From NCBI RefSeq assembly GCF_000377505.1, contig NZ_KB898200.1, positions 21,665 to 45,664 on the forward strand: DNA of 24,000 bases, written 5' to 3'. This DNA is from Paenibacillus massiliensis 2301065 = DSM 16942. Its GTDB lineage: Bacteria; Bacillota; Bacilli; Paenibacillales; Paenibacillaceae. A model generated the notes under the pieces. The model did not search any database. It was not told the DNA's origin and saw only the letters and a list, made by a program, of their open reading frames with translations. Both the position numbers and the translations under genes were made by a program. Shown here in pieces: positions 1 to 19,545 of this stretch (position 1 is the stretch's first letter; each line of letters begins with the position of its first letter).

Positions 1-672
1 ACAGCAATAGTGCATTATATATATAGGCTTGTTGAATCAATTCGTATCGTTAATTCGAATGCAGAGAATAAAATAAGTGCATTATTATTATTTTTATCCT
101 CTGTTTGTGATAATAAAAACAATAATAAAATAGGATCTATTTTCTTATATCCATTTTTAACTATGTTTTGCAATAGACATTACAAAAGTTTAGAAGATGC
201 AGGAGTAACTGCTGAATTTTTATCTTCAGATAACGATTTACTTCGTGAGCTAGTAAATGGAAATGTTGAAAGGGCTATAGAGATTTGTTTGAATTATTCA
301 CATAAATCGGAATATAGTAACGTTATGAAAGTTTTGACTCAAATTTCATTTGATCAAAATAGAGATTCTATTAATAAGGAAGTAGAATTCTTGGCTCTAG
401 CGAGTCCTAATATAAGTGATAATGAACTAGCAGAAGTAATTATAAGAATTTTAACAGTGAGCCCTCTTAATAAAGATGCATTAATTCATAAACTAATTTT
501 GATGCATCGGCTCGGTGATTTCATTACAGCACTCGAGACTGCTGAAGTTTTAAGAGTATTCTACCCGAAGGACAACAAAGTTTTATTATTAATTGCCCAA
601 TTTTATAGTGCAATTGGATTAATTGAGCAAAGCGAAAGTCTACGAATTGTAGGCCATTCAGACCTTGAGTAA
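1..672 (+). CDS. C-terminal part of a larger protein entering from upstream; helical-repeat (TPR-like) tail, function unknown
   Basis: Frame 1 is open from nt 1, with no stop before the track's GTG at 10. The stop is TAA at 670-672. It has the same AT-rich composition and strand as the downstream sugar genes. The last ~90 aa read like paired amphipathic helices (LILMHRLGDFITALETAEVLRVFYPKDNKVLLLIAQFYSAIGLIEQ). I recognised no family-diagnostic motif. Confidence 0.55.
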   Translation, partial: TAIVHYIYRLVESIRIVNSNAENKISALLLFLSSVCDNKNNNKIGSIFLYPFLTMFCNRHYKSLEDAGVTAEFLSSDNDLLRELVNGNVERAIEICLNYSHKSEYSNVMKVLTQISFDQNRDSINKEVEFLALASPNISDNELAEVIIRILTVSPLNKDALIHKLILMHRLGDFITALETAEVLRVFYPKDNKVLLLIAQFYSAIGLIEQSESLRIVGHSDLE

Positions 673-732
673 CCACTCATCATCTTTTTCGTATAATCTG
701 AATTTTTAGAAAAGTAATAGGGGCGTGTAAAA

Positions 733-1512
733 ATGAAAGTTGTGATTCTGGCTGGGGGATATGGTACTAGAATTAGTGAGGAAAGTCATTTAAAACCAAA
801 GCCTATGATTGAGATAGGCGATAAGCCAATTCTTTGGCATATTATGAAAATCTACAGTCATTACGGATATAACGATTTTATAATTTGTCTTGGTTATAAA
901 GGTTATGTCATAAAGGAATTTTTCGCTGATTATTACCTTCATGCCTCAGATGTTACCTTTGACTTTGTAAATGAGAACCGACTAACCATCCACAATAATG
1001 TATCTGAGCCTTGGCGTGTTACGCTGGTTGATACGGGGCGTGACACTATGACTGGTGGAAGGATAAAAAGAATTCAGAAATATATAGGCCAAGAAAGATT
1101 TATGATGACTTATGGAGATGGAGTTTCTGATGTAGATATTAGCGCTCTTGAACAATACCATTCTCTGTCAGGCGGTTTAGTTACAATGACAGCAATTCAG
1201 CCTGGAGGGCGATTCGGTGTACTAGATATTGACGAAGCTACAAATCGAGTAGAAAGGTTTGCAGAGAAATCGAAAGAGGATGGTGGATGGATCAACGGAG
1301 GTTTTATGGTAATTGAGCCTGAAATATTTGATTATATTCATGACGACAAGACAGTATTTGAAAGCGAAGCTTTATCAAGAGTTGCTGAAGATGATAAGTT
1401 GGAAGCTTTCAAACACCATGGTTTTTGGCAGTGTATGGATACCCAACGTGACAAGGGAGTTTTGGAAAACCTTTGGAGAAGTGAAAAAGCGCCTTGGAAA
1501 TTATGGGATTAA
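733..1512 (+). CDS. rfbF: glucose-1-phosphate cytidylyltransferase (RfbF/DdhA type; makes CDP-glucose)
   Basis: The N-terminus MKVVILAGGYGTRISEESHLKPKPMIEIGDKPILWHIMK is the nucleotidyltransferase G-loop. The full 259-aa protein (YGDGVSDVDI, GGFMVIEPEIF, HHGFWQCMDTQRDK) matches my memory of RfbF-type enzymes. An AGGGG RBS lies ~9 nt upstream of the ATG. Confidence 0.9.
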   Translation: MKVVILAGGYGTRISEESHLKPKPMIEIGDKPILWHIMKIYSHYGYNDFIICLGYKGYVIKEFFADYYLHASDVTFDFVNENRLTIHNNVSEPWRVTLVDTGRDTMTGGRIKRIQKYIGQERFMMTYGDGVSDVDISALEQYHSLSGGLVTMTAIQPGGRFGVLDIDEATNRVERFAEKSKEDGGWINGGFMVIEPEIFDYIHDDKTVFESEALSRVAEDDKLEAFKHHGFWQCMDTQRDKGVLENLWRSEKAPWKLWD

Positions 1513-1540
1513 CTACATTGAAGTGAAATGGGGTTTTTAG

Positions 1541-2629
1541 GTGGTAATATCTAACATTACGAAAAATGATATGAGTTTTATCTATAATAATTTGTCTCAG
1601 GATGACAAAGAAAAGTTGAAGGGCAGCACGCTTCTCGTTACGGGTTATGCTGGATCACTCGGATATTCGTTACTTCACTTTTTTGTTGAATATGGTGAAG
1701 TGTTAGGTGTTAAAAAAGTGTTTGGCATTGATAATTATATGTTTGGAAAACCAGCATGGGTTAAAAGAGTTTCAGAGCATCCTTTATTTGATTTGCGCGA
1801 GTTGGATATTATTAATTGTGATCTCGAATTTGCAGAGAGTGCTGATATTATTTTTCATATGGCTTCACTAGCCTCTCCTGTTTATTATCGACTACATCCG
1901 ATAGAGACAATTGATGCGGATGTAACTGGGGTAAGACGTCTATTAGAATTTTATAAAACCAAAAAAATAAAAGGTTTTTTATTTTATTCTAGTAGTGAGA
2001 TTTATGGGGACCCCCATCTTTCTCAAATTCCAACTCCAGAAGAATATTGGGGGAATGTTAATCCTTGTGGACCTAGAGCCTGTTATGATGAATCAAAACG
2101 TTTTGGCGAAACACTCTGTTATAATTTTTCAAGACAGTTTGGTATGCCAACAACAATCGTACGTCCTTTTAATAATTATGGACCTGGGATGAGAATTAAT
2201 GATCAACGGGTTGTAGCTGATTTTGCTCAAGCTATAGTAAATAATGAGGATATTGTTATTTACTCGGATGGTACTCCAACACGAACCTTTGACTATATCC
2301 CTGATGCTACAGTCGGTTATATAAAGTGTGCATTGTATGGGAAGTTTGACATATTTAATATTGGATCTGATGGTCCAGAAATTAGTGTGAGACAGCTAGC
2401 TGAAATGTACCGTAATATTGGTTTTGAAATTAATCAGTATTCTGGAAATATATCATTTAAAGTTCATAATGATGAGGAATATCTTGTTGATAATCCTAAT
2501 AGACGTTGTCCCAATATAAATAAAGCAAAACATATACTTGGTTATAATCCTCAAATTCATATTGAGGAGGGAATAAAAAGATATCTTAATTATTTGGTGA
2601 ATTGCGACCGAGAGGAGTATTTCTGGTGA
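1541..2629 (+). CDS. extended SDR NAD-dependent epimerase/dehydratase, UDP-glucuronate decarboxylase (UXS/ArnA-C)-like
   Basis: It has a GxxGxxG Rossmann loop ([11 protein letters not shown]). The block [38 protein letters not shown] closely parallels the UXS signature [30 protein letters not shown], which includes the YxxxK catalytic pair. The GTG start at 1541 is the first start after the in-frame TAG; an ATG at 1571 is an alternative. Confidence 0.8.
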   Translation: [362 protein letters not shown]

Positions 2630-3753
2630 ATGATTTTTCGATCGATATGTTGACAAACCAAGAAAATAAAGCCGATATTTTTTTGAAAATATGTTCTGAG
2701 GCTTTAGAAAAAGAAAAAAAACCGATAATTTTGTTGGGATCAGGGATAATTGGTGAGTTTTATTTGAGTTATATTAAAGAAATTGAAATGGATGTAGAAA
2801 TATTATTTTGCGATAATGACCCTATTAAATGGGGAACATATATAAATGGGATTCTTGTAATTAGCTTTGAAGAATTGATCCAAAGATATAGGGACTCTTA
2901 TTTTATCATTTCATCATTTAATTACTATGATGAGTTAAATACTCAATTATCAAATTATGCTTTGGAACCACTTGTGAAATTGAAGAAAAACGAGATTTTT
3001 GTCGATGATTATGATTTTTATTTCAAATTTAAAAACTATAAAAAAGTAATTGAAAATAATTTACTTAAATTTAAACAAGTTTATGATCTTCTTGAGGATG
3101 AAGAATCAAGAAGGATATTTATCGATAGAATAAACTATTGTATTTCTTTAAACAGCAATTTTTTGGCTCCCCTAAGAAGTCAATCACCTCAGTATTTTGA
3201 GGAGGGGATAATTTCATTGAATGATGATGAAATTTTCATTGATGGTGGAGGATGCATCGGAGAAACAGTTAAAGAGTTTGTAGACCAAACTGGGGGTCAG
3301 TATAGAAAGATTTATTCTCTGGAGCCCGAGACTGTTAAACATAAGGAATACTCAAAAAGAGTATTCATGGATGAGAAAATAGAAATTGTGCCTATGGGTC
3401 TATGGAATAAACGTTCGAAACTTAAGTTTGTTGGCAGGAATAGTGGCACCAGTTCTATTTCTCCAAACGGCAACATGGAGGTGGATGTAATATCCATAGA
3501 TGAATTGCTGCATGGTTCAGAAGCTACTTTTATCAAAATGGACATTGAAGGTTCAGAGATGAAAGCACTGATTGGAGCTCAAAATACTATTGAAACTTAT
3601 AGGCCAAAGTTAGGAATATGTATTTATCATGAACCATTAGATATTGTTGACATACCTTTGTACATTAAAGGGCTTGTCCCAGAGTATAAAATCTATATGA
3701 GGCACTATAATTATGGTTCATCTGAAACAGTTTGCTATGCAATAAGTATCTGA
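2626..3753 (+). CDS. FkbM-family SAM-dependent methyltransferase with an N-terminal Rossmann-like module
   Basis: The C-terminal half carries FkbM-type motifs (IFIDGGGCIGETV, ATFIKMDIEGSEMKALIGA, ICIYH). I chose the GTG at 2626 over the track's 2602 because GAGGAG lies 9 nt upstream and GTGA overlaps the upstream stop. Confidence 0.8.
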   Translation: MNDFSIDMLTNQENKADIFLKICSEALEKEKKPIILLGSGIIGEFYLSYIKEIEMDVEILFCDNDPIKWGTYINGILVISFEELIQRYRDSYFIISSFNYYDELNTQLSNYALEPLVKLKKNEIFVDDYDFYFKFKNYKKVIENNLLKFKQVYDLLEDEESRRIFIDRINYCISLNSNFLAPLRSQSPQYFEEGIISLNDDEIFIDGGGCIGETVKEFVDQTGGQYRKIYSLEPETVKHKEYSKRVFMDEKIEIVPMGLWNKRSKLKFVGRNSGTSSISPNGNMEVDVISIDELLHGSEATFIKMDIEGSEMKALIGAQNTIETYRPKLGICIYHEPLDIVDIPLYIKGLVPEYKIYMRHYNYGSSETVCYAISI

Positions 3754-3801
3754 ATATTAGAAAGTTTCACCTCGTGACAAGTTTAAAAGGCGGTGGTTTG
3801 A

Positions 3802-5127
3802 GTGAGTGATGTAAGCGACAAAGCCCTTGTACTAATTGATAAAATAAAATCCAGAAAATTAACTGTGGGTATAGTTGGTTTGGGTTATGTTGGTCTTCCG
3901 TTGGCCTTGGCGTTCACAAACGCATTGATAAAAGTCATTGGATTTGATATAGACCCGTCTAAAATTAGAGCTCTAAAAAAGGGAGAAAGTTATTTTTCTC
4001 ATATTGACTCTAGTCAAATAAAAGAAGCTGTAGAAAAAGGATTATTAGACGGAACAACTGAATTTTCAAGAGTTCAGGAAACAGATATTGTCATTTTGTG
4101 TTTGCCTACCCCACTGAATAAATATAGAGAACCTGACTTATCTTATGTTACAGGCACACTAGAGTCTATATTACCTTATTTAAGAAAAAATCAGGTAATA
4201 AGTCTTGAGAGTACGACCTATCCTGGAACAACTGATGAAGAGCTTAAAACAAGATTGGAGGAAAATGGTTTTAGAATTGGCGAAGACTTTTATTTGATTT
4301 ATTCACCTGAACGAGAAGATCCAGGAAATCCTAATTTTACAACTAGAACTATTCCTAAAATAGTTGGAGGTACTACTCAAAATTGTTTGAAAGTAGGAAC
4401 TGCACTGTATGAGATTGTTGTTAGTAACGTGATACCAGTAAGTTCCACAAGGGTTGCAGAACTAACAAAACTTCTCGAAAATATTTATCGCTCTATTAAC
4501 ATAGGGCTTGTTAATGAAATGAAAATTATTGCTGATAAAATGAATATTGATATCTGGGAGGTGATAGAGGCTGCTTCGTCAAAACCTTTCGGATTTACTC
4601 CTTTTACTCCAGGACCTGGATTAGGTGGACACTGCATACCAATTGATCCATTCTATCTGACTTGGAAGGCAAAGGAATATGGGATTCATTCTAAATTTAT
4701 AGAATTGTCTGGGGAAGTAAATACTTCAATGCCTAGTTGGGTCATCAACAAGGTCTCAGATGGTCTCAATGAAAGAGAGAAATCAATTAAAAATTCTAAT
4801 ATCCTAATAGTAGGTTTGTCATACAAAAAAAATATTGATGATATTAGAGAGTCTCCCTCAGTTGAACTTATGGAAATTCTAAGAGATAAAGGTGCTAAGC
4901 TTTACTATTCTGATCCTTATATCCCTTCCTTTCCTAAAATGCGTGAGCATTTTTTTCATATGGAAAGTGTTGAGTTAACTACTGATATTTTAGAAAAAAT
5001 GGATTGTGTTTTGATTAGTACAGATCATGATCTTTTTGATTATGATTTAATTCTTAAACACAGTGACTTAATTGTAGATACAAGAGGCGTTTATAGAGGT
5101 GAAAAGGAAAACGTTATACGAGCATAA
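3802..5127 (+). CDS. nucleotide-sugar dehydrogenase, UDP-N-acetyl-hexosamine 6-dehydrogenase type (WbpA/WecC/TviB-like)
   Basis: It has the N-terminal NAD loop VGIVGLGYVGLPLALAF and the catalytic-Cys motif GLGGHCIPIDPFYL. The 441-aa length and the IVGLSYKKNIDDIRESP C-terminal domain are typical of this subfamily. The substrate assignment is inference. Confidence 0.85.
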   Translation: MSDVSDKALVLIDKIKSRKLTVGIVGLGYVGLPLALAFTNALIKVIGFDIDPSKIRALKKGESYFSHIDSSQIKEAVEKGLLDGTTEFSRVQETDIVILCLPTPLNKYREPDLSYVTGTLESILPYLRKNQVISLESTTYPGTTDEELKTRLEENGFRIGEDFYLIYSPEREDPGNPNFTTRTIPKIVGGTTQNCLKVGTALYEIVVSNVIPVSSTRVAELTKLLENIYRSINIGLVNEMKIIADKMNIDIWEVIEAASSKPFGFTPFTPGPGLGGHCIPIDPFYLTWKAKEYGIHSKFIELSGEVNTSMPSWVINKVSDGLNEREKSIKNSNILIVGLSYKKNIDDIRESPSVELMEILRDKGAKLYYSDPYIPSFPKMREHFFHMESVELTTDILEKMDCVLISTDHDLFDYDLILKHSDLIVDTRGVYRGEKENVIRA

Positions 5128-5163
5128 TCAAATCCTTCAAGATTTTGAAAGGTGCTAATTTTT

Positions 5164-6345
5164 ATGATAAGAGGAAATAAAATCAAAGCTTTATTTGTTA
5201 ATGGTTTGCCTATTGATATGGGAGGAATTGAAAAGTCAACTATGGAAATTCTACGCGAGATTAATCATGAAAAGTTGCAGCTTGATTTCGCAGTAAGAAA
5301 GCCCGATAAAGGTTGTTTTCACGATGAAATAGAAAATTATGGTGGGGAAATATACAATGTTTTTGAAAAGACTAAGCATAAGGGAAAGAAAAAATGGAAT
5401 TTAATAATGGATATATACTCCTTATTTGGGTTCTATAGAATTCTCAAACAAAAAGGCCCTTACAACGCGATTCACATTGTTCATCCTTTTCTTGATGGTT
5501 TTTTAATTATTGCCGCCATATTAGCTAAGGTTCCGGTTAGAATCGTTCATAGCCGTTATACTGGGATAGATGACAAAATTAAACCTGGTATTCTTCTTAA
5601 ATTAACTCGTAAGTTTAGAGCTTCATTATGCAAAAAATATGCTACTCATATTTGGGGATGTTCAATAGCTGCAGCCCAACATCATTTTGGTAAAACAATA
5701 ACGGATGATAAAAGGTTGGAGATACCTGAAAATCCAATAAAAGTAGTTGATTATTTGACGAAGAAATGTACTAAGGATGAAGCATGCTCCATCTTGAATA
5801 TTTCTTATGACAATATAAATTTTTTGCATGTTGGTAGGTTTACAGATTCAAAAAACCAGTTATTCCTACTCTCTTTATTCTCCCAATTATTAACGAGTGA
5901 AGGAAACATTCATTTGGTAATAGTGGGGGGAGGGGCATTGGAAGATCAATTGAAAGATCGTATACAAACTCTTGGTATTGAACGTAATGTGACTATGTTA
6001 CCAAGTGATACAAACATACAGATCGCTCTCGCAGCATCAGACTATTTTCTCTTTCCCTCATTGTATGAAGGTTTTGGTAATGTCCTAATTGAAGCACAAG
6101 CAGCTGGAGTCCCATGTATAGCATCCGATAGATGTCCAACTGAAACCAATATGGGCTTAATTGATTATCTTCCTTTAGAGCAAGGAACGGAGTTATGGGA
6201 AAAATTTATTTTGAACATTTTAAAGAATCCAAATAACAGGGAACTTATGGTCGAAAAGATTCTAAATCATGATGTAACAGTAGTTGCTCCTCGCATGGAA
6301 GGTGTATATATAAAAGGACAAAAATACTATGAAAACTACAATTGA
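5164..6345 (+). CDS. glycosyltransferase, GT-B fold (GT4/'group 1')
   Basis: The C-terminal signature FLFPSLYEGFGNVLIEAQAAGVPCIASD is the EX7E-type GT4 motif. I preferred the ATG at 5164, which follows GAAAGG; the track's GTG at 5152 is an alternative. Confidence 0.85.
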   Translation: MIRGNKIKALFVNGLPIDMGGIEKSTMEILREINHEKLQLDFAVRKPDKGCFHDEIENYGGEIYNVFEKTKHKGKKKWNLIMDIYSLFGFYRILKQKGPYNAIHIVHPFLDGFLIIAAILAKVPVRIVHSRYTGIDDKIKPGILLKLTRKFRASLCKKYATHIWGCSIAAAQHHFGKTITDDKRLEIPENPIKVVDYLTKKCTKDEACSILNISYDNINFLHVGRFTDSKNQLFLLSLFSQLLTSEGNIHLVIVGGGALEDQLKDRIQTLGIERNVTMLPSDTNIQIALAASDYFLFPSLYEGFGNVLIEAQAAGVPCIASDRCPTETNMGLIDYLPLEQGTELWEKFILNILKNPNNRELMVEKILNHDVTVVAPRMEGVYIKGQKYYENYN

Positions 6346-6364
6346 GAAGCTAGGTGAAGGGTTA

Positions 6365-7618
6365 ATGAACTATAAAATAACAGTTTTCGGCCTTGGATTC
6401 GTAGGATTAACTACGGCCCTTGCCTTTGCAGAAAAAGGTCATACAGTTCATGGTTATGATGTTAATGTACAAAGAACAGAATTACTTAATTCAGGTAAGC
6501 TCCCATTTGTAGAACCAGGCTTAGATGATGCATTATTAAGACATATAAATAATAAATTTAGTATTACCACAGATGTAATTACTTCTGTCAAAGAAAGTGA
6601 TTTTATTTTTCTGTGCGTCGGCACGCCACAAGGAGAGAATGGCGAAGCTGATTTGAAGTATATTTTCTCTGCTATAGATACTTTCTCGCCTATTTTAAAT
6701 GATAGTAAGTATAGAACAGTAGTTATTAAATCTACAATTCCACCATCGACTACTGCTGAACGAATAGTACCCTATTTTTCTTCGAAAGACCTACTCCCGG
6801 GTAAAGAATTTAGTATTGCCAATAATCCTGAGTTTCTCAGGGAAGGGAAATGTTGGGAGGATATGATGAATGCCGATCGCATTGTGTGCGGAGTGGCTGA
6901 TTCTAGAGGTGAAGAGATGCTCAAATCTCTATATCGTTCGTTTGATTCCCCTTTCTTTGGAGTTTCTTTGAATACTGGTGAATACATTAAATATTTATCC
7001 AACACCCTACTAGCTACGATGATTAGTTATGCAAATGAAATGTCTAAAGTTGCTGATGCAATTGGTGGTATTCAAATTAAAGAAGCGTTCGAGATTCTTC
7101 ATATGGATCGTCGTTGGGGGGGGGCTTCAATGGCGTCTTATGTCTACCCTGGTTGTGGTTATGGTGGATATTGTTTGCCAAAGGACACACAAGCCATGTA
7201 TGCTAAATCGCTATCGAAAGGATATGCACCTGAAATTTTAAAACATGTAATTGAAGTTAATGATACAATGCCTGAATTTATGGTAGATAGAATCATGAAG
7301 GTTGCAAAAGAAACGGACAGTATAGGAATACTTGGTTTATCCTTCAAGCCTGGTTCAGATGATGTAAGAGATAGTTCCTCAGCTAAAATTATAAAATCAT
7401 TAATGGCGTCCAATTATAAAAATATTAATGTGTTTGATCCTGTTGCTAATAAAGCATTTGCTAGTGAGTATGATCTAAGTATAAATTACTACGATACCTT
7501 AGATGAGATTTGTACCGAATCTACAGTGCTTGTTTTAGTCACCGCATGGGACGAATTTGCTGCAGTCAATAAAAAATATCCATTAAAGACATTTGTAGAC
7601 TGTAGATATTATTTGTGA
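6365..7618 (+). CDS. UDP-glucose/GDP-mannose dehydrogenase family protein (UDP-glucose 6-dehydrogenase-like)
   Basis: It has the NAD loop ITVFGLGFVGLTTALAFAEKGH, ANNPEFLREG, and the catalytic Cys in GYGGYCLPKD. I preferred the ATG at 6365 (GGTGAAGG upstream), which avoids overlap with the GT4 gene; the track start is 6329. Confidence 0.85.
   Translation: MNYKITVFGLGFVGLTTALAFAEKGHTVHGYDVNVQRTELLNSGKLPFVEPGLDDALLRHINNKFSITTDVITSVKESDFIFLCVGTPQGENGEADLKYIFSAIDTFSPILNDSKYRTVVIKSTIPPSTTAERIVPYFSSKDLLPGKEFSIANNPEFLREGKCWEDMMNADRIVCGVADSRGEEMLKSLYRSFDSPFFGVSLNTGEYIKYLSNTLLATMISYANEMSKVADAIGGIQIKEAFEILHMDRRWGGASMASYVYPGCGYGGYCLPKDTQAMYAKSLSKGYAPEILKHVIEVNDTMPEFMVDRIMKVAKETDSIGILGLSFKPGSDDVRDSSSAKIIKSLMASNYKNINVFDPVANKAFASEYDLSINYYDTLDEICTESTVLVLVTAWDEFAAVNKKYPLKTFVDCRYYL
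7116..7124 (+). repeat. G9 homopolymeric tract inside the dehydrogenase CDS
   Basis: Direct reading gives ...cgtcgtt GGGGGGGGG cttcaatgg..., translated W-G-G. It is in frame as sequenced. Confidence 0.95.
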
Positions 7619-7626
7619 GGTGTTTT

Positions 7627-8928
7627 ATGCCACTTTTGAGTATTATCATTCCAGTGTATAATGTTGAACATTATCTTGAAGATTGCCTCAAAAGCATACT
7701 TAGCCAATTATTTCAGGATTATGAGGTTATCCTAGTTAATAATGCATCAACTGATAGTAGTGGAAGTATATGTAGCAAGTATGCCGAACAATACAGTTGC
7801 ATAAGGACAGTTCATCTCGAGCGTAATGTACTACCTGCTGGAGCAAGAAATGTTGGGCTAGAGATCTCGCAAGGCGATTATGTACACTTTTGTGACAGTG
7901 ATGATTATTACACTGAAGGAAGTTTGCAATTATTGGCGGATTTACTGAATCAAAGGGGCCCATCGGTTGTAATGGGCCAATTTTTATGTGTTCCTGAAAA
8001 AGGGGCATATGTAACCTCCGATGTTGATTTAAACTCAGAAATCATAGAAAAAGGAAACTCATCAAATATATCTGAGTATCTTCTTTCTTTGCCACAGTTA
8101 TTATGCACTCCATGGAGACTGGTCGTAAAAAGGGATGTTCTTATAACTAATGATATAAAGTTTCCTGAGGGGATCCACTCAGAAGATGAGGAGTGGTTCC
8201 CAAAAGTTATCTGCTGCTCAGACACTTTTGCACATCTACCAGTTCCCTTTTACTGTTACCGTCCAAGAGCAGTTGGTTCTATCACTTCATCCAAATCATT
8301 CATAAATAGTAAGTCACACCTTGTGGTAGCATTGAATTTAATTCGTTTTTTACTGAATAAAAAATACACAGATAGAAGAAAAAAACTGATTGAATCACGA
8401 ATCACTTTTCTATTGGGGCTGTTTTCAACTCGATGTGATACCTTTACCAGGTCTGAAATTGCCGAGTTGGCAGTTATTTTGAGAGAGGAGCTAGAGCCAT
8501 TAACAGATGTTGAAGAGTCTCTTTATTCTTCACTATTCAAACTTGTGAGTCTATTTGGAGCTACTATGGGATTGCAGTTGTATAAAACTCTTGTTGAAGA
8601 AGTTACTATAGGTTTGGTATCAACCCACGAGGGCAAAGATATCTATGTTTTTCCAACGGGCTATAACGGTGAGGCAACTGCAAGAATTTTGAAAAAGCAA
8701 GGATACAGTGTGAAAGGTTTCTTAGATAATAGCGTGTCAAAAGCAGGTTCTGAGTTAAATGAACTTCCAGTAATGTTACCAAGTGTTCTTCAAGAGATAC
8801 CGGCTTCTAATCTTGAAAATACCTTTGTCATCATATCAACGCAGCAGGAAAAAATATCAAGCGCTTTAATGAATCAACTTAGAGAATTAGGCTTGAAGGA
8901 TAGTCAATTTGCTAAAAGAATTTATTAG
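7627..8928 (+). CDS. GT2 (GT-A fold) glycosyltransferase fused to a C-terminal Rossmann-like module
   Basis: It has LSIIIPVYNVEHYLEDCLKSILSQ, ILVNNASTDSS and a DxD motif (FCDSDDYY). The ATG at 7627 lies 5 nt after GAGGTG. The last ~100 aa (GKDIYVFPTGYNGEATARILKKQGYSVKGFLDNSVSKAGS) lie outside the GT2 fold. Confidence 0.85.
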   Translation: MPLLSIIIPVYNVEHYLEDCLKSILSQLFQDYEVILVNNASTDSSGSICSKYAEQYSCIRTVHLERNVLPAGARNVGLEISQGDYVHFCDSDDYYTEGSLQLLADLLNQRGPSVVMGQFLCVPEKGAYVTSDVDLNSEIIEKGNSSNISEYLLSLPQLLCTPWRLVVKRDVLITNDIKFPEGIHSEDEEWFPKVICCSDTFAHLPVPFYCYRPRAVGSITSSKSFINSKSHLVVALNLIRFLLNKKYTDRRKKLIESRITFLLGLFSTRCDTFTRSEIAELAVILREELEPLTDVEESLYSSLFKLVSLFGATMGLQLYKTLVEEVTIGLVSTHEGKDIYVFPTGYNGEATARILKKQGYSVKGFLDNSVSKAGSELNELPVMLPSVLQEIPASNLENTFVIISTQQEKISSALMNQLRELGLKDSQFAKRIY

Positions 8929-8951
8929 TGAAATTAGGGGGGGAGAGTAGG

Positions 8952-9902
8952 ATGGAACTTAGTCCACATAAAATGAGCGTTATAATGTGCACTTATAATA
9001 GACCAGAATTTCTGGAACGTTCCATTGAAAGCATTCTCTCGCAAACATTTGAGGATTTTGAATTTGTATTAGTTAATAATGGATCGACGGATAGCAGTTT
9101 TGAATTGTGTGAGTATTATCAAGCAAAAGACAAACGAATCAAACTTATCAATATCCCGATCAACGAAGGAGCTGCTAAAGGTAGAAACAGGGGGCTAATG
9201 GAAGCTTCGGGGGAGTATATAACCTTTGTTGATGATGATGACTATTGTGAACCAAGGATGCTGCAGGTTCTTTGGGAGTTATCTCAGACATATGATGCTG
9301 ATATTGCTTTATGCGGTAGTTGGAATAATATTAACGGGGAATTAGAGCCTTATTTTATATTTGATGACACCCTTGTACTTAATAAAGTTCAAGCACTAGA
9401 CGAGCTTTTGTTAAGAAAACGTTATAATGTTGCTCCCCCTACAAAGTTATTTCGAAAAAAACTATTTGATGGCGTAACATTTAAGGAAAATGTTTTGGTG
9501 GATGACATACATGTGATTTATAAGGTTTTTGCCAACGCGGATATAGTGGTAGCTAACGGTGAACCTCTTTATAGTTTTAGAAAACATCCTAATAATATGA
9601 CGCATTTTATTCAGAGTAATAGGCCTTCTCCAGAAATTATTAAGGAATACTTATCAGCATTTAAAGAGCGTACAGCTTATCTATCTGAAAAAGTGAGACC
9701 AATATCAGAGAGGGCTAAATACTCAGAACTCTCATATATGTTATCCATGTGCAATAGAATTAAAAACTTTGAAGAAATTGATTATTCTAAGCACTACAAT
9801 GAAATGTTAAATGAAATTAGTGATAATTACCAATTTTTGATTAATTGCCCTTACACTGAGGAAGAAGAAATAAAGCTTCTTAATACACTAATGATACGAT
9901 AA
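8952..9902 (+). CDS. GT2 (GT-A fold) glycosyltransferase
   Basis: It has MSVIMCTYNRPEFLERSIESILSQTF, VLVNNGSTDSS and DxD (FVDDDDY). I preferred the ATG at 8952, with GGAG 6 nt upstream; the track's GTG at 8928 is an alternative. Confidence 0.85.
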   Translation: MELSPHKMSVIMCTYNRPEFLERSIESILSQTFEDFEFVLVNNGSTDSSFELCEYYQAKDKRIKLINIPINEGAAKGRNRGLMEASGEYITFVDDDDYCEPRMLQVLWELSQTYDADIALCGSWNNINGELEPYFIFDDTLVLNKVQALDELLLRKRYNVAPPTKLFRKKLFDGVTFKENVLVDDIHVIYKVFANADIVVANGEPLYSFRKHPNNMTHFIQSNRPSPEIIKEYLSAFKERTAYLSEKVRPISERAKYSELSYMLSMCNRIKNFEEIDYSKHYNEMLNEISDNYQFLINCPYTEEEEIKLLNTLMIR

Positions 9903-9986
9903 AATGTTGAACTATAATAGTAAGTGGCGTAATGAAGTATTATGCGAATAATTAAGTTATACATTTTCGAATGATGGAGCCGTGAC

Positions 9987-10025
9987 AAATCCCTGCTGTC
10001 CTAACTAGCAGGGATTTATTATTTG
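9987..10025 (+). terminator. intrinsic terminator closing the AT-rich operon
   Basis: A perfect 11-bp stem, AAATCCCTGCT (9987-9997) paired with AGCAGGGATTT (10007-10017), encloses a 9-nt loop and is followed by ATTATTT. Confidence 0.8.
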
Positions 10026-10047
10026 AGCACTCATTGGAATAGGCTGT

Positions 10048-10074
10048 TGTAGATTTAATTTGATATGCCGATAT
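10048..10074 (+). promoter_or_regulatory. candidate sigma-D (sigma-28, flagellar) promoter
   Basis: There is an exact 8/8 match to the B. subtilis sigma-D -10 consensus GCCGATAT at 10067-10074. It sits 66 nt upstream of the fliB-like ATG and after the terminator. The -35 is poor: TGTAGATT matches TAAAGTTT at 5 of 8 positions, and there is no clean TAAA at the 15-nt spacing. Confidence 0.45.
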
Positions 10075-10139
10075 TCTTTAGAGAAGCCCTTGTGTAGTTA
10101 AAATGCTAATGGACTAGGTCCTAATTTAGGAGTGAACGT

Positions 10140-11408
10140 ATGAGCACAGCAAAGGCACTTGTCCCTGAATATATGACACAATTTCAATGTATTGGTTCCA
10201 CATGTGAGGACAGCTGCTGCATTGGTTGGAAGGTTGTTATGGATAAGAAAACATACCAAAATCTTTCCAACGTACCACATAAGCAGCTCAGAGAGACCTT
10301 TAAGAATGGTTCTGTAAAACGGGAGCAGAAGGTCCGAACGGATGATCAATTTGCCATGATGAAAATGGATGCGGAGACAGGCTGCTGCTCCATGCTGAAT
10401 GAACAGAAGCTATGCAACATTCATGCTTCCATTGGTGAGAACTATCTAGCGCCAATCTGTGCAACTTATCCACGTAATATTCACTACGTCAACGAACAGC
10501 AGGAAATATCGGCAGTCATGTCCTGTCCTGAAGCAGCACGGCTAGCGTTATTGAATCCTGACAAAATGGCATTCACTTATGTCGAACCTGTAGAGTATGG
10601 GAACGCGCTGATTAAAGCTAACATTTTTCCAGAGCGCCAGTCCGCCAACTATATGGGAGCATTTTGGCCAATTCGTATTTTTGTCATTGAGATCCTGCAG
10701 AGTAGAGAGTTCAGCTTTCCACATCGAATGTTAGTTCTGGGACTGTTTTGTGAGCAGCTGCAGCAACTTATCAGCCAAGGTATGGATCAGGAAGATAAGG
10801 TTCAAGATCTGATTGAGCGCTTTAAAATCATGATGACAACGAATGAAGAGCTGCGTAACTTCGATACTTTTCCGACAAATTCAGAGTTCCAATTCATTAC
10901 ATTAAATAATATTGTGTCGAAAAATCTGAATAACATCGGCTCTAATGAAAGATTCAGAGAATGTATCAGGGATTACCTGGAGGGCATGAACCCAAGCGAG
11001 CTGGAGAACAGGACGGAGGCTAATGTCGTTGATCGATATGATCAGGCTTACATGGACTACTATAAGCCTTTCATGGATGAGCATGAGCATATTTTTGAGA
11101 ACTATGCGGTGAACTTTATGTTCTCACACCTGTTCCCCAAGAATAATAGCCGAAATGTATTTAAGATCTATACGATCTTGGTTAGCCATTATGTACTGAT
11201 GAAATTACTGCTCATCGGAATGTCAGCGAAGCATCAGGGCTTAACGGCTCAATTGGTAGTAAAGCTTATACAGACATTTACCAAGACCTCGGAGCATTCC
11301 AATCAATATGTAGATAACATCCTGGAATTCCTGACGGCTAACCAGTATGGGACGGTAGGCCACATGAGTCTGTTGATTAAGAATGGATTGGGGGAAGTAG
11401 CCAAATGA
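10140..11408 (+). CDS. fliB: FliB-family protein (flagellin lysine-N-methylase homologue)
   Basis: The Cys-rich N-terminus FQCIGSTCEDSCCIGWKVVMDKKTY, then CCSMLNEQKLCNIHASIGENYLAPICATYPR and MSCPEAARLALLNPD, follow the motif order I recall for Salmonella FliB (F.C.GS.C.D.CC.GWK..LDK; LC..H; C..FPR; SCPEAA..L.NP). An AGGAG RBS lies 7 nt upstream of the ATG. Confidence 0.75.
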   Translation: MSTAKALVPEYMTQFQCIGSTCEDSCCIGWKVVMDKKTYQNLSNVPHKQLRETFKNGSVKREQKVRTDDQFAMMKMDAETGCCSMLNEQKLCNIHASIGENYLAPICATYPRNIHYVNEQQEISAVMSCPEAARLALLNPDKMAFTYVEPVEYGNALIKANIFPERQSANYMGAFWPIRIFVIEILQSREFSFPHRMLVLGLFCEQLQQLISQGMDQEDKVQDLIERFKIMMTTNEELRNFDTFPTNSEFQFITLNNIVSKNLNNIGSNERFRECIRDYLEGMNPSELENRTEANVVDRYDQAYMDYYKPFMDEHEHIFENYAVNFMFSHLFPKNNSRNVFKIYTILVSHYVLMKLLLIGMSAKHQGLTAQLVVKLIQTFTKTSEHSNQYVDNILEFLTANQYGTVGHMSLLIKNGLGEVAK

Positions 11409-12148
11409 GTGTATCAGCAGCTATGATTGTAAGAGATTCCGAGCGATGTATTGCTCGCTGCCTGGATAGTATAGTTGATGCTGTAGATGAGATTGTCATC
11501 GTGGATACGGGTTCTACGGATCGAACATTGGATATTATCGAGCAATATATCAAGAACTATCATCATATTAAGCTCTATCACTTCAAATGGATTGATGACT
11601 TTGCCGCTGCGCGCAACTACTCTCTTGGGAAGGTTACCCACGACTGGGTATTTGTCGTTGACTCCGATGATGTTTTGCCCGCCACAGAGCAGGCAAAGGT
11701 GCGCTCTTATGTCCAGAGACAGCTGGAGACAGCGCAGGAAGCCGTCTTTGATATTGTATATGATAACACCGTGGCCGGAGACATCGTTGAGGTAATTGAA
11801 GTGGGATATGTAAGACTGTTCCCGGCGCATTTAAGATATGAGGATCGCATCCATGAACAGATATCCTTTGGGGACCTGCCACGGCTACGGAGTGATATTC
11901 ACTTGCTGCATGATGGCTATGACGTAAACATTGTCGACCTTAAGGCCAAGAAGAAACGTAACGTTGACTTACTCATTGCGAGTCTGCAGGCTAATCAAGA
12001 TAACGCCAGATTATGGCTTCATTTGGCAAGAGAGATGTCCGTGCTGGATCAGGCTAAGGCGCGGAGATATCTGGATATTGCAGAATCAAAGACTAGTAAT
12101 GTTGATCTCTTAAGGCTTATTAATAATGAAAGATCAGCAATATCCTAA
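11405..12148 (+). CDS. small GT2 glycosyltransferase of the protein-modifying, TPR-associated type
   Basis: SAAMIVRDSERCIARCLDSIVDAVDEIVIVDTGSTDRTLDII .. WIDDFAAARNYSL .. VVDSDDV is the signature of the GT2 subgroup usually fused to TPR repeats. A short helical tail (ARLWLHLAREMSVLDQAKARRYLDIA) follows. An ATGA overlap with the fliB-like stop suggests translational coupling. Confidence 0.8.
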   Translation: MSVSAAMIVRDSERCIARCLDSIVDAVDEIVIVDTGSTDRTLDIIEQYIKNYHHIKLYHFKWIDDFAAARNYSLGKVTHDWVFVVDSDDVLPATEQAKVRSYVQRQLETAQEAVFDIVYDNTVAGDIVEVIEVGYVRLFPAHLRYEDRIHEQISFGDLPRLRSDIHLLHDGYDVNIVDLKAKKKRNVDLLIASLQANQDNARLWLHLAREMSVLDQAKARRYLDIAESKTSNVDLLRLINNERSAIS

Positions 12149-12278
12149 TTATCTTGTAGCTACTGTTTCATGTTCTCTGAATCCGGTTACTAATCAATAA
12201 AGTGTACTCTACCCATAGATTCGACAAGTATTTACATTAGCATGACATTATATTACAAAAAAACATTTACATTTCCAA

Positions 12279-12308
12279 TTGACAATGGATAACCTTGGGT
12301 GGTATAGT
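12279..12308 (+). promoter_or_regulatory. sigma-A promoter for the cold-shock gene
   Basis: TTGACA (12279-12284), an 18-nt spacer ending in TGg (extended -10), and TATAGT (12303-12308). Confidence 0.7.
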
Positions 12309-12362
12309 CGGAAATGTGGGCGAGAGCTTCACTTCATTTGATGACGAAGGGAATGTTAGTGC

Positions 12363-12560
12363 ATGCAAGGTAAAGTAAAATGGTTTAACGCAGAAAAAGG
12401 TTACGGTTTCATTGAAACAGCCGAAGGCGGCGACGTATTCGTACATTTCTCCGCAATCCAATCTGAAGGCTTCAAAACCCTCGAAGAAGGACAAGACGTT
12501 GAATTCGATATCGTTGAAGGCGCTCGTGGTCCGCAAGCAGCTAACGTAATCAAATTATAA
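12363..12560 (+). CDS. cold-shock protein, CspA/CspB family
   Basis: [62 protein letters not shown] contains the RNP1 (KGYGFI) and RNP2 (VFVHF) motifs. It is near-identical in pattern to B. subtilis CspB. Confidence 0.97.
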
Positions 12561-12625
12561 TCATCCCGGCTCGGCCGACCTACATAATTGGTAAGATGGT
12601 TAGCAATTTAGACAACGCTAGCAAT

Positions 12626-12655
12626 AACCCTGGAACAGATTCCAGGGTTTTTTTA
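12626..12655 (+). terminator. intrinsic terminator of csp
   Basis: A 10-bp perfect stem, AACCCTGGAA paired with TTCCAGGGTT, has a CAGA loop and runs into T7. Confidence 0.9.
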
Positions 12656-12802
12656 TATGTTTTGAGCCTATAAATCTATAATGAAAATGTTTTCTTCGTG
12701 TCAAGAAAACTTTCATGAAATGTCGAAATTACACGAAAGAAAAGATGTGAACTAAAATACTTTTTCATTTTAACAAATTGTTAGAATTCTGCTTCATGGC
12801 TT

Positions 12803-16738: not shown

Positions 16739-16937
16739 TCCGATATTTGTCGGAATAGCGATACCCGGTTCATGCGGGTCTGTTCGTAGATGGGGTTAAC
16801 AGCTCCCCGAAGAGTGTATGTATGATGGCTGGTGCGTTACAAATGGCCGGCGGTACACACTAGCCGGGGAGCTATCTTTGAAATGATGGTCTGTCATCAA
16901 GTGAGGCATAACTAATGAGGCAAAAGGAGCAATGAAC

Positions 16938-19406: not shown

Positions 19407-19432
19407 TAAAACGTCTAAAATGTAGCCGATAC
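19407..19432 (+). promoter_or_regulatory. candidate sigma-D (flagellar) promoter upstream of the HD-GYP gene
   Basis: cTAAA (19407-19410), a 14-nt spacer, and GCCGATAC (19425-19432), compared with the consensus TAAA-N15-GCCGATAT. That is 7 of 8 in the -10 box with the spacer one nt short. Confidence 0.5.
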
Positions 19433-19545
19433 TAAGAGTACTTGGTGCAGACAAGCTAAATATGGAGTTGGGTCATCATGACGGCTTGGCTCTATATTCC
19501 ATATATGCAGCTGCTGGCATTTACTTTTCGGAGGAGGCAATTCGA

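What the first reader, a model, noticed from the sequence alone, without database searches (positions are those of the whole stretch)
10048..12148. FliB-like lysine methylase translationally coupled to a protein-type GT2 behind a sigma-D-like -10 box: possible dual methylation plus glycosylation module
Seen: a 422-aa protein carries the Cys-rich FliB motif series (FQCIGSTCEDSCCIGWKV.. / LCNIH / CATYPR / SCPEAARLALLNPD). Its stop overlaps (ATGA, 11405-11408) the start of a 247-aa GT2 of the subgroup normally fused to TPR repeats. An exact GCCGATAT (10067-10074) lies in the 114-nt gap between the island terminator and this pair. Established: FliB methylates surface lysines of Salmonella flagellin, and to my knowledge the family is functionally characterised only there. 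GCCGATAT is the sigma-D/sigma-28 -10 consensus. GT2-TPR enzymes are the flagellin or peptide glycosyltransferases in several Firmicutes. Inference: the pair is a flagellar-regulon operon that modifies flagellin in two ways, and the GT2 may add the first sugar that the AT-rich operon then elaborates. A methylase and glycosyltransferase coupled in one operon in a Gram-positive organism would be an under-described arrangement. The G+C here is intermediate (about 40-45% by spot count), so this pair looks older or more resident than the AT-rich operon.
Basis: partly seen in the sequence, partly recalled or inferred. Interest (0 to 1): 0.68.

Follow-up and report, generated by a model that had tools for sequence, protein, structure and literature searches.

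The report
Flagellin methylase and glycosyltransferase gene pair
Two overlapping genes at the end of a Paenibacillus flagellin sugar-decoration island encode a clear FliB-family flagellin lysine methylase and a short GmaR/SunS-type protein glycosyltransferase; both are ordinary, already annotated parts of such islands, and their pairing is confined to one lineage.

Summary
ORFs 10140-11408 (422 aa) and 11405-12148 (247 aa) overlap by ATGA, and GCCGATAT sits at 10067-10074.

The 422-aa protein is a full-length FliB-family member. It scores 301.6 bits against NCBIfam NF038110 (cutoff 85) and has the CX4CX3CC motif plus four more invariant Cys. In 67 of 80 related loci fliB lies among late flagellar genes.

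The 247-aa protein is a conserved Paenibacillus/Cohnella short GT2. Its nearest relatives are the Listeria GmaR flagellin glycosyltransferase domain and SunS/ThuS. Its orthologues always sit in flagellin loci, usually as the last island gene before csp-hpf-secA, and the upstream partner varies (FliB, GT2-TPR, a methyltransferase, csrA).

FliB-GT2 adjacency is therefore lineage-specific and not a conserved module.

The sigma-D claim is weak for this window. There is no -35 element, the octamer occurs five times in the window, and the box is absent from a 92.6%-identical relative. CCGATAW boxes do recur upstream of fliB in other Bacillota (20 of 78 loci against about 3.7 expected).

Co-occurrence of fliB with glycosylation genes has already been described for Clostridium. 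This is a new member of a known kind, of modest interest.

The parts
1..9902 (+). Context: the AT-rich flagellin-glycan biosynthesis and transfer operon. It encodes a helical protein running off the left end, glucose-1-phosphate cytidylyltransferase, an SDR dehydratase/epimerase, an FkbM methyltransferase, two nucleotide-sugar dehydrogenases, a GT4 and two GT2s. This is the variable cassette.
   Evidence: Family assignments. G+C is 0.27-0.38. The cassette is replaced by a different one in L087.
9987..10017 (+). Terminator-like hairpin at the end of the island operon. The T-run that follows is interrupted (ATTATTTGAG).
   Evidence: 12-bp stem, 5 GC pairs; -19.8 kcal/mol, z = -2.94.
10067..10074 (+). 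GCCGATAT, an exact match to the sigma-D/sigma-28 -10 consensus. It has no recognisable -35 element and lies on the island (variable) side of the breakpoint.
   Evidence: Absent at the equivalent place in L087.
10107..12654 (+). Conserved 'resident' block shared at 92.6% nucleotide identity with relative L087: the fliB leader, fliB, the short GT2 and csp. Its left edge (10107) is the breakpoint of the glycan-cassette replacement, 33 nt before the fliB ATG.
   Evidence: blastn of the window against L087 and the L087 gene list.
10128..10132 (+). AGGAG ribosome-binding site, 7 nt before the fliB ATG at 10140.
   Evidence: Sequence read directly.
10140..11408 (+). fliB: FliB-family flagellin lysine-N-methylase, 422 aa. 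It has CX4CX3CC at C17/C22/C26/C27 and further invariant Cys at C83, C92, C107 and C129. A 7-residue C-terminal extension (GLGEVAK) beyond the family's usual ...LIKN end creates the overlap with the next gene.
   Evidence: NF038110, 301.6 bits, profile 1-373 of 373. (alignment A1, invariant columns). (Salmonella FliB motif and numbering). (AlphaFold2 model, pLDDT 84.6).
11390..11397 (+). GGGGGAAG, a Shine-Dalgarno-like sequence inside the fliB 3' end that serves the GT2 start codon.
   Evidence: Sequence read directly.
11405..11408 (+). ATGA: the GT2 start codon overlaps the fliB stop codon, a geometry that allows translational coupling.
   Evidence: The same overlap occurs in L087. L086 has a 68-nt gap instead.
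11405..12148 (+). Short (247 aa) GmaR/SunS-type family-2 protein glycosyltransferase. It has a complete GT-A catalytic domain (about residues 1-175; DTGSxD, DxD at D86/D88, H150-E151, H169) followed by four helices (179-246) that correspond to the start of the TPR region of longer relatives. It has no TPR array.
   Evidence: PF00535 72.8 bits; SunS model partial, 91.6 bits. (GmaR 22ao E = 1.7e-26; ThuS; SunS). (invariant residues). (pLDDT 94.7; SunS/ThuS TM 0.79-0.85).

Best explanation
The window comes from Paenibacillus massiliensis and shows the 3' end of its flagellin modification island, which sits in front of csp-hpf-secA-prfB. In related Paenibacillus genomes this region follows the late flagellar genes.

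Gene 1 (10140-11408) is a FliB-family enzyme. By homology it should bind a [4Fe-4S] cluster through C17/C22/C26/C27 and use SAM to N-methylate lysines of flagellin in the cytoplasm before export.

Gene 2 (11405-12148) is a stand-alone catalytic-domain version of the GmaR/SunS-type GT2 enzymes, which transfer a sugar directly onto a protein or peptide. In this Paenibacillus clade it is the conserved last gene of the flagellin glycosylation island, whatever glycan cassette lies upstream. Most likely it acts on flagellin or on the flagellin-linked glycan.

The two genes are co-transcribed and, through the ATGA overlap, probably translationally coupled in this lineage. They are evolutionarily independent modules that ended up adjacent, not a dedicated two-enzyme machine. 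Transcription probably comes from read-through of the island operon and/or a weak promoter using the GCCGATAT box.

Shown: family membership, conserved catalytic residues, gene order and conservation patterns. Inferred: the substrates, the methyl and sugar chemistry, and the promoter.
For: FliB membership:
- NF038110 equivalog at 301.6 bits against a cutoff of 85, covering the whole profile.
- The eight invariant Cys, including CX4CX3CC at the same residue numbers that were mutated in Salmonella FliB.
- RefSeq names the protein flagellin lysine-N-methylase [P. massiliensis].

Flagellar link:
- Of the 80 best loci, 67 have late flagellar genes within 10 kb. The commonest order is flagellin-fliB-flaG. 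The closest ones (L001, L002) read fliT-fliB-csp-hpf-secA.

GT2:
- A conserved 246-251-aa family in Paenibacillus/Cohnella, from 93% down to about 50% identity.
- The best solved relatives are the GmaR glycosyltransferase domain, ThuS and SunS.
- The model matches SunS/ThuS at TM 0.79-0.85 with E about 1e-21, ten orders of magnitude better than the next fold match.
- The catalytic residues are invariant.
- Orthologues always lie in flagellin loci: csrA-GT2-flagellin (L081), fliT-GT2TPR-GT2 (L083), and island-GT2-csp-hpf-secA (L084, L085, L089).

Residency: window 10107-12654 is 92.6% identical to L087, which has a different cassette upstream.
Against: - No biochemical data exist for any Gram-positive FliB in the literature I could search.
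- The closest fliB-bearing Paenibacillus genomes have short flagellins (255-256 aa) with 0-2 lysines in the roughly 25-residue central segment. The methylation targets are therefore not obvious.
- The short GT2 lacks the TPR array that the GmaR authors propose recognises flagellin. It may need a partner, or it may act on a sugar acceptor instead.
- The flagellin gene of this genome lies outside the window and could not be retrieved.
- The sigma-D box is not conserved in the nearest relative.
Confidence: 0.7

Rival explanations
1. The pair is a dedicated sigma-D-driven two-gene operon that forms a coordinated dual-modification module, with the GT2 installing the first sugar on flagellin and the AT-rich operon elaborating it.
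For: - Exact GCCGATAT 65 nt upstream of the ATG, following a terminator.
- CCGATAW occurs within 245 nt upstream of fliB in 20 of 78 loci against about 3.7 expected (binomial p about 5e-10). Fifteen of the 20 fall in a 16-nt positional band. L001 and L002 both have terminator-TTAA-N17-GCCGATAT-fliB.
- The GT2 is nearest to enzymes that glycosylate proteins directly, and it is conserved regardless of cassette.
- The ATGA overlap is kept in L087, and FliB-GT2 adjacency also occurs in L086.
Against: - No -35 element. The -35 block scores -5.0, the 13 flagellin promoters used to build the matrix score +4 to +13, and 61.5% of all CCGATA sites score at least as well.
- The box is absent in L087, where fliB follows the upstream gene after 68 nt with no CCGATA box. 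The box lies outside the conserved block.
- The octamer occurs 5 times in the window, mostly inside genes.
- The pairing is not conserved. None of 80 fliB loci has an adjacent orthologue of this GT2; the only hit that is best to it scores 116 bits and lies elsewhere in its locus. GT2 orthologues follow a GT2-TPR, a class I methyltransferase or csrA in other genomes.
- A larger GT2-TPR protein (651-662 aa), found right after fliT in L081/L082 and L083 and at the upstream edge of L085, L086 and L089, is an equally good candidate for the initiating transferase.
Confidence: 0.2
2. The short GT2 is not a protein-initiating enzyme. It is a glycan-elongating or capping transferase, or a catalytic subunit that works only together with a TPR-containing partner encoded elsewhere in the island.
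For: - It lacks the TPR array present in GmaR, SunS, ThuS and nearly all more distant homologues.
- In several genomes it directly follows, and in L083 overlaps, a GT2-TPR gene.
- It retains only four helices after the GT-A domain.
Against: - Its closest sequence and structure relatives are all direct protein or peptide glycosyltransferases.
- In L081 it sits immediately upstream of the flagellin gene with no adjacent TPR gene.
Confidence: 0.3
3. The FliB-like protein in Bacillota modifies something other than flagellin lysines, for example another late flagellar protein, or it performs a different Fe-S/SAM-dependent reaction.
For: - The family has been characterised only in Salmonella.
- The fold has no solved neighbour: best Foldseek E = 1.9 for a model with pLDDT 84.6.
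- Neighbouring Paenibacillus flagellins are short, with few central lysines.
Against: - The curated equivalog model is passed by a wide margin.
- All eight conserved Cys are retained.
- fliB lies directly after the flagellin gene in 34 of the 80 loci.
Confidence: 0.12

Closest known systems
Salmonella enterica FliB, the flagellin lysine-N-methyltransferase (NCBIfam NF038110; Pfam PF27117 FliB_C)
   Same: - Full-length match to the family model.
- CX4CX3CC at C17/C22/C26/C27 plus four more conserved Cys, matching the '8 highly conserved cysteines' and the [4Fe-4S] ligands described for Salmonella FliB.
- Encoded next to late flagellar genes.
- No recognisable known fold, as that paper also states.
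   Different: - Gram-positive host.
- 7-residue C-terminal extension that overlaps the next gene.
- Embedded in a glycosylation island, whereas enterobacterial methylase and glycosylation islands are mostly mutually exclusive. Two Pantoea strains with fliB plus a GT25 are the exception.
- Activity, Fe-S cluster and substrate are untested.
Listeria monocytogenes GmaR, the flagellin O-GlcNAc transferase and MogR anti-repressor
   Same: - Best solved-structure sequence match: 22ao, E = 1.7e-26, query residues 3-195 against GmaR 11-200.
- GT-A catalytic domain with the same DxD, HEQ and H-x-G-Y motifs.
- Flagellar gene context.
   Different: GmaR has 637 residues, with TPR, linker and anti-repressor domains. 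The window protein has 247 residues, with only four helices after the catalytic domain. No regulatory role is implied.
SunS / ThuS glycocin S-glycosyltransferases (PDB 7msn, 7msp, 7msk; TIGR04195)
   Same: - Closest fold: TM 0.79-0.85, E about 1e-21.
- Partial match to TIGR04195: 91.6 bits, model positions 58-274.
   Different: - Far below the family cutoff of 350 bits.
- Lacks the N-terminal extension and the C-terminal TPR-like domain.
- The neighbouring genes are flagellar and sugar-pathway genes. I did not specifically search for a glycocin precursor or an immunity/export gene.
Flagellar glycosylation islands of Clostridium that contain fliB (C. butyricum CFSA-TJ-E, C. beijerinckii NCIMB 8052)
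   Same: The same concept. fliB is encoded inside or beside a variable flagellin glycosylation island, and flagellin is predicted to be both methylated and glycosylated. In my sample, 21 of 80 fliB loci have sugar-pathway or glycosyltransferase genes within 10 kb.
   Different: - Different genus and different island position (before csp-hpf-secA).
- Here fliB is overlapped with a specific short GT2.
- Those predictions are also purely genomic.
Paenibacillus alvei flagellin O-glycosylation system (Janesch et al. 2016, Glycobiology; cited, paper not held, details from memory)
   Same: Same genus. Flagellin is O-glycosylated and glycosyltransferase genes sit beside the flagellin gene. Glycosylation is needed for filament assembly and motility, as stated.
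   Different: I could not read that paper. Whether its transferases are orthologues of the 247-aa protein, and whether fliB is present there, was not tested.

Membership tests
FliB flagellin lysine-N-methylase (NF038110 / PF27117) | Scores above the curated equivalog cutoff over the full length of the model | tested here: met
   301.6 bits against a cutoff of 85. Residues 9-394 match profile positions 1-373 of 373.
FliB flagellin lysine-N-methylase (NF038110 / PF27117) | N-terminal CX4CX3CC motif ([4Fe-4S] ligands C17, C22, C26, C27 in Salmonella) and eight conserved cysteines | tested here: met
   C17, C22, C26, C27, C83, C92, C107 and C129 are invariant across 21 Bacillota homologues. Motif and numbering as reported in PMC8598068.
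FliB flagellin lysine-N-methylase (NF038110 / PF27117) | Encoded within or next to the flagellin / late flagellar gene cluster | tested here: met
   67 of 80 homologous loci have late flagellar genes within 10 kb. The closest relatives read fliT-fliB-csp-hpf-secA. The window has the same csp-hpf-secA-prfB flank. The flagellin gene itself lies outside the window.
FliB flagellin lysine-N-methylase (NF038110 / PF27117) | Binds an oxygen-sensitive [4Fe-4S] cluster and transfers methyl groups from SAM to flagellin lysines | not testable with these tools
   Requires protein purification, spectroscopy and mass spectrometry of flagellin.
GmaR/SunS-type protein-directed GT2 glycosyltransferases | GT-A fold with a DxD motif and the clade's HEQ and H-x-G-Y motifs | tested here: met
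   PF00535 at 72.8 bits. D86/D88, H150-E151, H169 and G171-Y172 are invariant or nearly so. The model has pLDDT 94.7 and matches SunS/ThuS at TM 0.79-0.85.
GmaR/SunS-type protein-directed GT2 glycosyltransferases | C-terminal TPR array fused to the catalytic domain | tested here: not met
   The protein ends after four helices (residues 179-246). Long-form homologues continue for 100-200 more residues with TPR Pfam hits. The short form is itself a conserved family of 246-251 aa.
SunS family peptide S-glycosyltransferase (TIGR04195 equivalog) | Scores above the equivalog cutoff | tested here: not met
   91.6 bits against a cutoff of 350; partial coverage of model positions 58-274 of 421. It is not a SunS equivalog.
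GmaR/SunS-type protein-directed GT2 glycosyltransferases | Transfers a sugar directly onto a protein acceptor (flagellin) | not testable with these tools
   Supported only by context: orthologues always lie in flagellin loci.
Sigma-D (sigma-28) dependent promoter | -10 element GCCGATAT | tested here: met
   Exact match at 10067-10074. The octamer is weakly specific here: 5 copies in the window.
Sigma-D (sigma-28) dependent promoter | -35 element TAAA about 15-16 nt upstream of the -10 | tested here: not met
   No TAAA-N13-17-GCCGATAW match in the window. The -35 block scores -5.0 on a matrix from 13 flagellin promoters that themselves score +4 to +13, and 61.5% of all CCGATA sites in the fetched loci score at least as well.
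Sigma-D (sigma-28) dependent promoter | Conservation of the box in front of the same gene in relatives | tested here: inconclusive
   Absent in the closest relative L087. Present in L001 and L002. Enriched across Bacillota fliB loci: 20 of 78 against about 3.7 expected, with positional clustering.
Sigma-D (sigma-28) dependent promoter | Transcription depends on SigD | not testable with these tools
   Needs RNA-seq or 5'-RACE in wild type and a sigD mutant.
Conserved FliB-GT2 two-gene module | The two genes are adjacent wherever either occurs | tested here: not met
   Adjacent only in the window, L087 (same 90% protein cluster) and L086 (68-nt gap). The GT2 is absent next to fliB in 80 of 80 other fliB loci. 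FliB is absent next to the GT2 in L081, L083, L084, L085, L088 and L089.

The most novel reading that the evidence does not exclude
The TPR-less 247-aa GmaR/SunS-type GT2 could be a universal 'anchor' transferase of Paenibacillus flagellin islands. It would install the invariant linkage sugar and borrow substrate recognition from whichever enzyme is encoded immediately upstream and translationally coupled to it (FliB here, a GT2-TPR or a methyltransferase elsewhere). In this lineage a physical FliB-GT2 complex would then methylate and glycosylate flagellin in one pre-export step.
Probability: 0.1. Interest if true: 0.55.

Novelty: new member of a known kind. Interest (0 to 1): 0.3.

Why it matters
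Flagellin decoration affects filament assembly, surface properties, recognition by flagellum-targeting phages and immune detection. FliB has been studied biochemically only in Salmonella, yet the family is large: 674 clusters at 50% identity with E <= 1e-30. It sits beside flagellin genes in most Bacillota loci sampled. A Paenibacillus strain that carries both fliB and a glycosylation island would be a convenient system to ask two questions. First, are Gram-positive flagellins methylated at all? Second, how do methylation and glycosylation share the small exposed surface of a short flagellin? As a genomic finding it mainly confirms existing annotation and adds no new kind of system.

Tried and rejected
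1. Retrieving the window's own contig to see the flagellin gene. The flagellin of this genome was therefore not examined, and related loci were used instead.
2. Finding a structural analogue for FliB. The AlphaFold2 model is good (pLDDT 84.6, pTM 0.83), but Foldseek against the PDB gave nothing better than E = 1.9. A profile search of PDB sequences gave only a spurious hit at E = 0.0027. There is no mechanistic lead beyond the published Fe-S/SAM chemistry.
3. Pfam scan of FliB in the local copy: no hit, because PF27117 is newer than that copy. NCBIfam settled membership.
4. Rfam scan of the whole window: no known RNA family.
5. Homology between the left-end ORF (1-672) and the first gene of L087: none. 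Pfam gave only a sub-threshold DUF4476 hit. Function left open.
6. Shewanella as a second characterised FliB. The paper shows glycosylated and lysine-methylated flagellin but does not identify the methylase. I therefore dropped my recollection that a FliB homologue had been assigned there.
7. The idea that the 247-aa GT2 is a truncated pseudogene. Rejected because a family of 246-251-aa orthologues spans 93% down to about 50% identity with all catalytic residues intact.
Full report
**Observation**

The two ORFs are as described: 10140-11408 (422 aa) and 11405-12148 (247 aa), with the GT2 ATG overlapping the fliB TGA as ATGA. An AGGAG lies 7 nt before the first ATG, and a GGGGGAAG lies 7 nt before the second. 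GCCGATAT is at 10067-10074. It sits downstream of a 12-bp terminator-like hairpin at 9987-10017. G+C is 0.41-0.47 over the pair, 0.27-0.38 in the upstream operon and 0.44-0.56 downstream. The organism is Paenibacillus massiliensis: both proteins are identical to RefSeq entries from that species, named 'flagellin lysine-N-methylase' and 'glycosyltransferase family 2 protein'.

**Gene 1 is a FliB-family protein**

- It scores 301.6 bits against NCBIfam NF038110, an equivalog model with a cutoff of 85, across the whole profile.
- In an alignment with 20 Bacillota homologues, eight cysteines are invariant: C17, C22, C26, C27, C83, C92, C107 and C129.
- The first four form CX4CX3CC at exactly the residue numbers that ligate the [4Fe-4S] cluster in Salmonella FliB. 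That paper also notes eight conserved cysteines.
- The family is large. There are 674 clusters at 50% identity with E <= 1e-30.
- An AlphaFold2 model (pLDDT 84.6) has no structural neighbour in the PDB. This agrees with the published statement that FliB resembles no known fold.

**Context ties the family to flagellin**

Of the 80 best loci, 67 carry late flagellar genes within 10 kb and 60 carry a flagellin hit. The commonest order is flagellin-fliB-flaG-fliD-fliS. The closest loci in the genome collection (L001 and L002, 61-62% identity) read flagellin-flaG-fliD-fliS-fliT-fliB-csp-hpf-secA-prfB. The window has the same right flank: csp 12363-12560, hpf, secA and prfB. Compared with these relatives, the window has a glycan operon in front of fliB and an extra GT2 behind it.

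**Gene 2 is a short, conserved, protein-type GT2**

- It belongs to a family of 246-251-aa proteins in Paenibacillus and Cohnella, from 93% down to about 50% identity. More distant homologues are 330-430 aa and carry TPR repeats.
- The best solved relatives by sequence are the GmaR glycosyltransferase domain (E = 1.7e-26), ThuS and SunS.
- By structure, the model (pLDDT 94.7) matches SunS/ThuS at TM 0.79-0.85 and E about 1e-21. The next fold, TarS, is at 1e-10.
- The nucleotide-binding DTGSxD, the DxD (D86/D88), H150-E151 and H169 are invariant across short and long forms. The enzyme therefore looks active.
- It fails the SunS equivalog cutoff (91.6 bits against 350) and lacks the TPR array. 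I file it as a TPR-less member of the GmaR/SunS-type clade, not as SunS or GmaR.
- GmaR's N-terminal domain transfers GlcNAc to flagellin, and its authors propose that the TPR domain recognises flagellin.

**Is the pair a module?**

I examined eight further loci carrying orthologues of the 247-aa GT2; L081 and L082 show the same arrangement.

| Locus | Gene order around the GT2 |
|---|---|
| L083 (P. crassostreae) | fliT-GT2TPR(662 aa)-GT2, with a 4-nt overlap |
| L084, L085, L089 | GT2 (353-356 aa)-GT2, then csp-hpf-secA-prfB; directly in L085 and L089, after a 1316-aa ORF in L084 |
| L088 | class I methyltransferase-GT2 |
| L086 | FliB-GT2, with a 68-nt gap |
| L087 | FliB-GT2, with the same ATGA overlap |

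Conversely, none of the 80 fliB loci has an orthologue of this GT2 next to fliB. The short GT2 is thus a conserved member of Paenibacillus flagellin islands, typically the last gene before csp, and its upstream partner varies. FliB is an independent and far more widespread flagellin-locus gene. Their adjacency is lineage-specific. The window's FliB carries a 7-residue tail (GLGEVAK) beyond the family's usual C-terminus. This tail is what produces the overlap, which is consistent with a secondary juxtaposition.

**Residency**

L087 encodes a FliB of the same 90%-identity cluster. It matches the window at 92.6% nucleotide identity from 10107 to 12654 and at 94-95% further downstream. Upstream it carries a different cassette, with a C-methyltransferase, a sugar isomerase, a formyltransferase, WbqC, an aminotransferase and a GT2-methyltransferase fusion. 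Only the cytidylyltransferase gene is weakly similar (71%). The cassette breakpoint is 33 nt before the fliB ATG.

**Promoter**

The GCCGATAT box and the terminator both lie on the variable side of that breakpoint. In L087, fliB follows the preceding gene after 68 nt with no CCGATA box.

Within the window, the octamer occurs five times (0.76 expected) and the other four copies are intragenic. There is no TAAA-type -35. I built a matrix from 13 flagellin-gene promoters taken from the fetched loci. These show the canonical CTAAA/ATAAA element spaced about 17 nt from CCGATAT. On this matrix the window's -35 block scores -5.0, whereas the training promoters score +4 to +13. Of the 911 CCGATA sites in the loci, 61.5% score at least as well.

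On the other hand, CCGATAW occurs within about 245 nt upstream of fliB in 20 of 78 loci, against about 3.7 expected (p about 5e-10). Fifteen of those 20 fall in a 16-nt band about 45-55 nt before the ATG. L001 and L002 conserve terminator-TTAA-N17-GCCGATAT ahead of fliB.

A sigma-D-type promoter with a weak -35 in front of fliB is therefore a recurrent theme in Bacillota. For this window it is plausible but unproven. I put it at roughly one in three.

**Literature**

- FliB biochemistry exists only for Salmonella.
- In Enterobacteriaceae, methylase and glycosylation islands are mostly mutually exclusive. Two Pantoea strains with fliB plus a GT25 are the exception.
- In Clostridium, a 2026 comparative study lists fliB inside flagellar glycosylation islands and explicitly predicts flagellins that are both methylated and glycosylated.
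- Shewanella oneidensis flagellin has been shown experimentally to carry both O-glycans and methyl-lysines, but the methylase was not identified.
- In my own sample, 21 of 80 fliB loci have sugar-pathway or glycosyltransferase genes within 10 kb, which is a lower bound.

The concept of dual modification, and the co-location of fliB with glycosyltransferases in Gram-positives, is therefore not new.

**Caveats**

- The flagellin gene of this genome could not be retrieved.
- The nearest fliB-bearing Paenibacillus genomes have 255-256-aa flagellins with only 0-2 lysines in the short central segment. The methylation sites are not obvious.
- All functional statements rest on homology and gene context.

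**Verdict**

The family assignments and the flagellar association hold. The sigma-D promoter and the 'coupled module' are weak. First-sugar transfer by the GT2 is untested.
- This is a new member of known kinds, already annotated as such. Interest is about 0.3.

Noticed in passing
window 1-10106 compared with L087 1-9967: Two genomes whose FliB proteins fall in the same 90%-identity cluster (92-95% nucleotide identity downstream) carry entirely different flagellin-glycan cassettes at the same site. The right-hand breakpoint is at window 10107, 33 nt before the fliB ATG. Only the glucose-1-phosphate cytidylyltransferase gene is weakly shared (71% over 730-1139). This is a clean example of cassette replacement in a flagellin glycosylation island.
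   Followed up: partly
window 19407-19432: TAAA-N14-GCCGATAC lies 30 nt upstream of the HD-domain gene at 19462-20634, whose best family hits are to c-di-GMP phosphodiesterase-type HD domains. It matches sigma-D better than the box before fliB, because it has a TAAA -35. It may place this gene in the motility regulon.
   Followed up: no
window 12252-12654: Cold-shock protein gene (12363-12560, 65 aa) with a near-consensus TTGACA-18-TATAGT promoter at 12279-12308 and a terminator at 12626-12649. The region is 84-86% identical between Paenibacillus species, more than the flanking coding genes at 73-77%. No terminator-like site was found between the GT2 stop and csp, so fliB-GT2 transcripts may read into csp.
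   Followed up: no
window 16937-17032: Classical RF2 (prfB) programmed +1 frameshift site: ORF0 MIDPSVKH...LRGSL ends in AGGGGGTCTCTTTGAC, and the main ORF 17032-18054 matches RF2 from residue 24 onward.
   Followed up: yes
window 10140-10175: The RefSeq model WP_233426241.1 is 411 aa, which corresponds to a start at M12. The nearly invariant residues L7, P9 and Y11 lie upstream of M12, and an AGGAG precedes the ATG at 10140. The 422-aa start is the better call.
   Followed up: yes
window 12654-12688 compared with L087 12516-14100: L087 has an extra minus-strand gene (431 aa, DUF6270) inserted between csp and hpf. The window lacks it.
   Followed up: no
window 1-672: An ORF running off the left edge (at least 223 aa, 27% G+C) has no family assignment beyond a sub-threshold DUF4476 hit. 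It shows no similarity to the 1004-aa TPR/GT protein at the equivalent place in L087.
   Followed up: partly
window, whole: GCCGATAT occurs 5 times (2671, 10067, 10506-, 20087-, 21697-) against 0.76 expected, and none of 100 shuffles reached 5. Four copies are intragenic. The excess is unexplained.
   Followed up: no
L081-L089 (Paenibacillus flagellin islands): Many Paenibacillus islands share a frame: a GT2-TPR of about 650-660 aa (directly after fliT in L081/L082 and L083, and at the upstream edge of L085, L086 and L089), a divergently transcribed CTP-transferase plus glycerophosphotransferase-TPR pair (seen in L081, L083, L084, L085, L086 and L089), variable GT2-methyltransferase fusions, and the 247-aa GT2 as the last gene. 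This suggests glycerol-phosphate-containing flagellin glycans.
   Followed up: no
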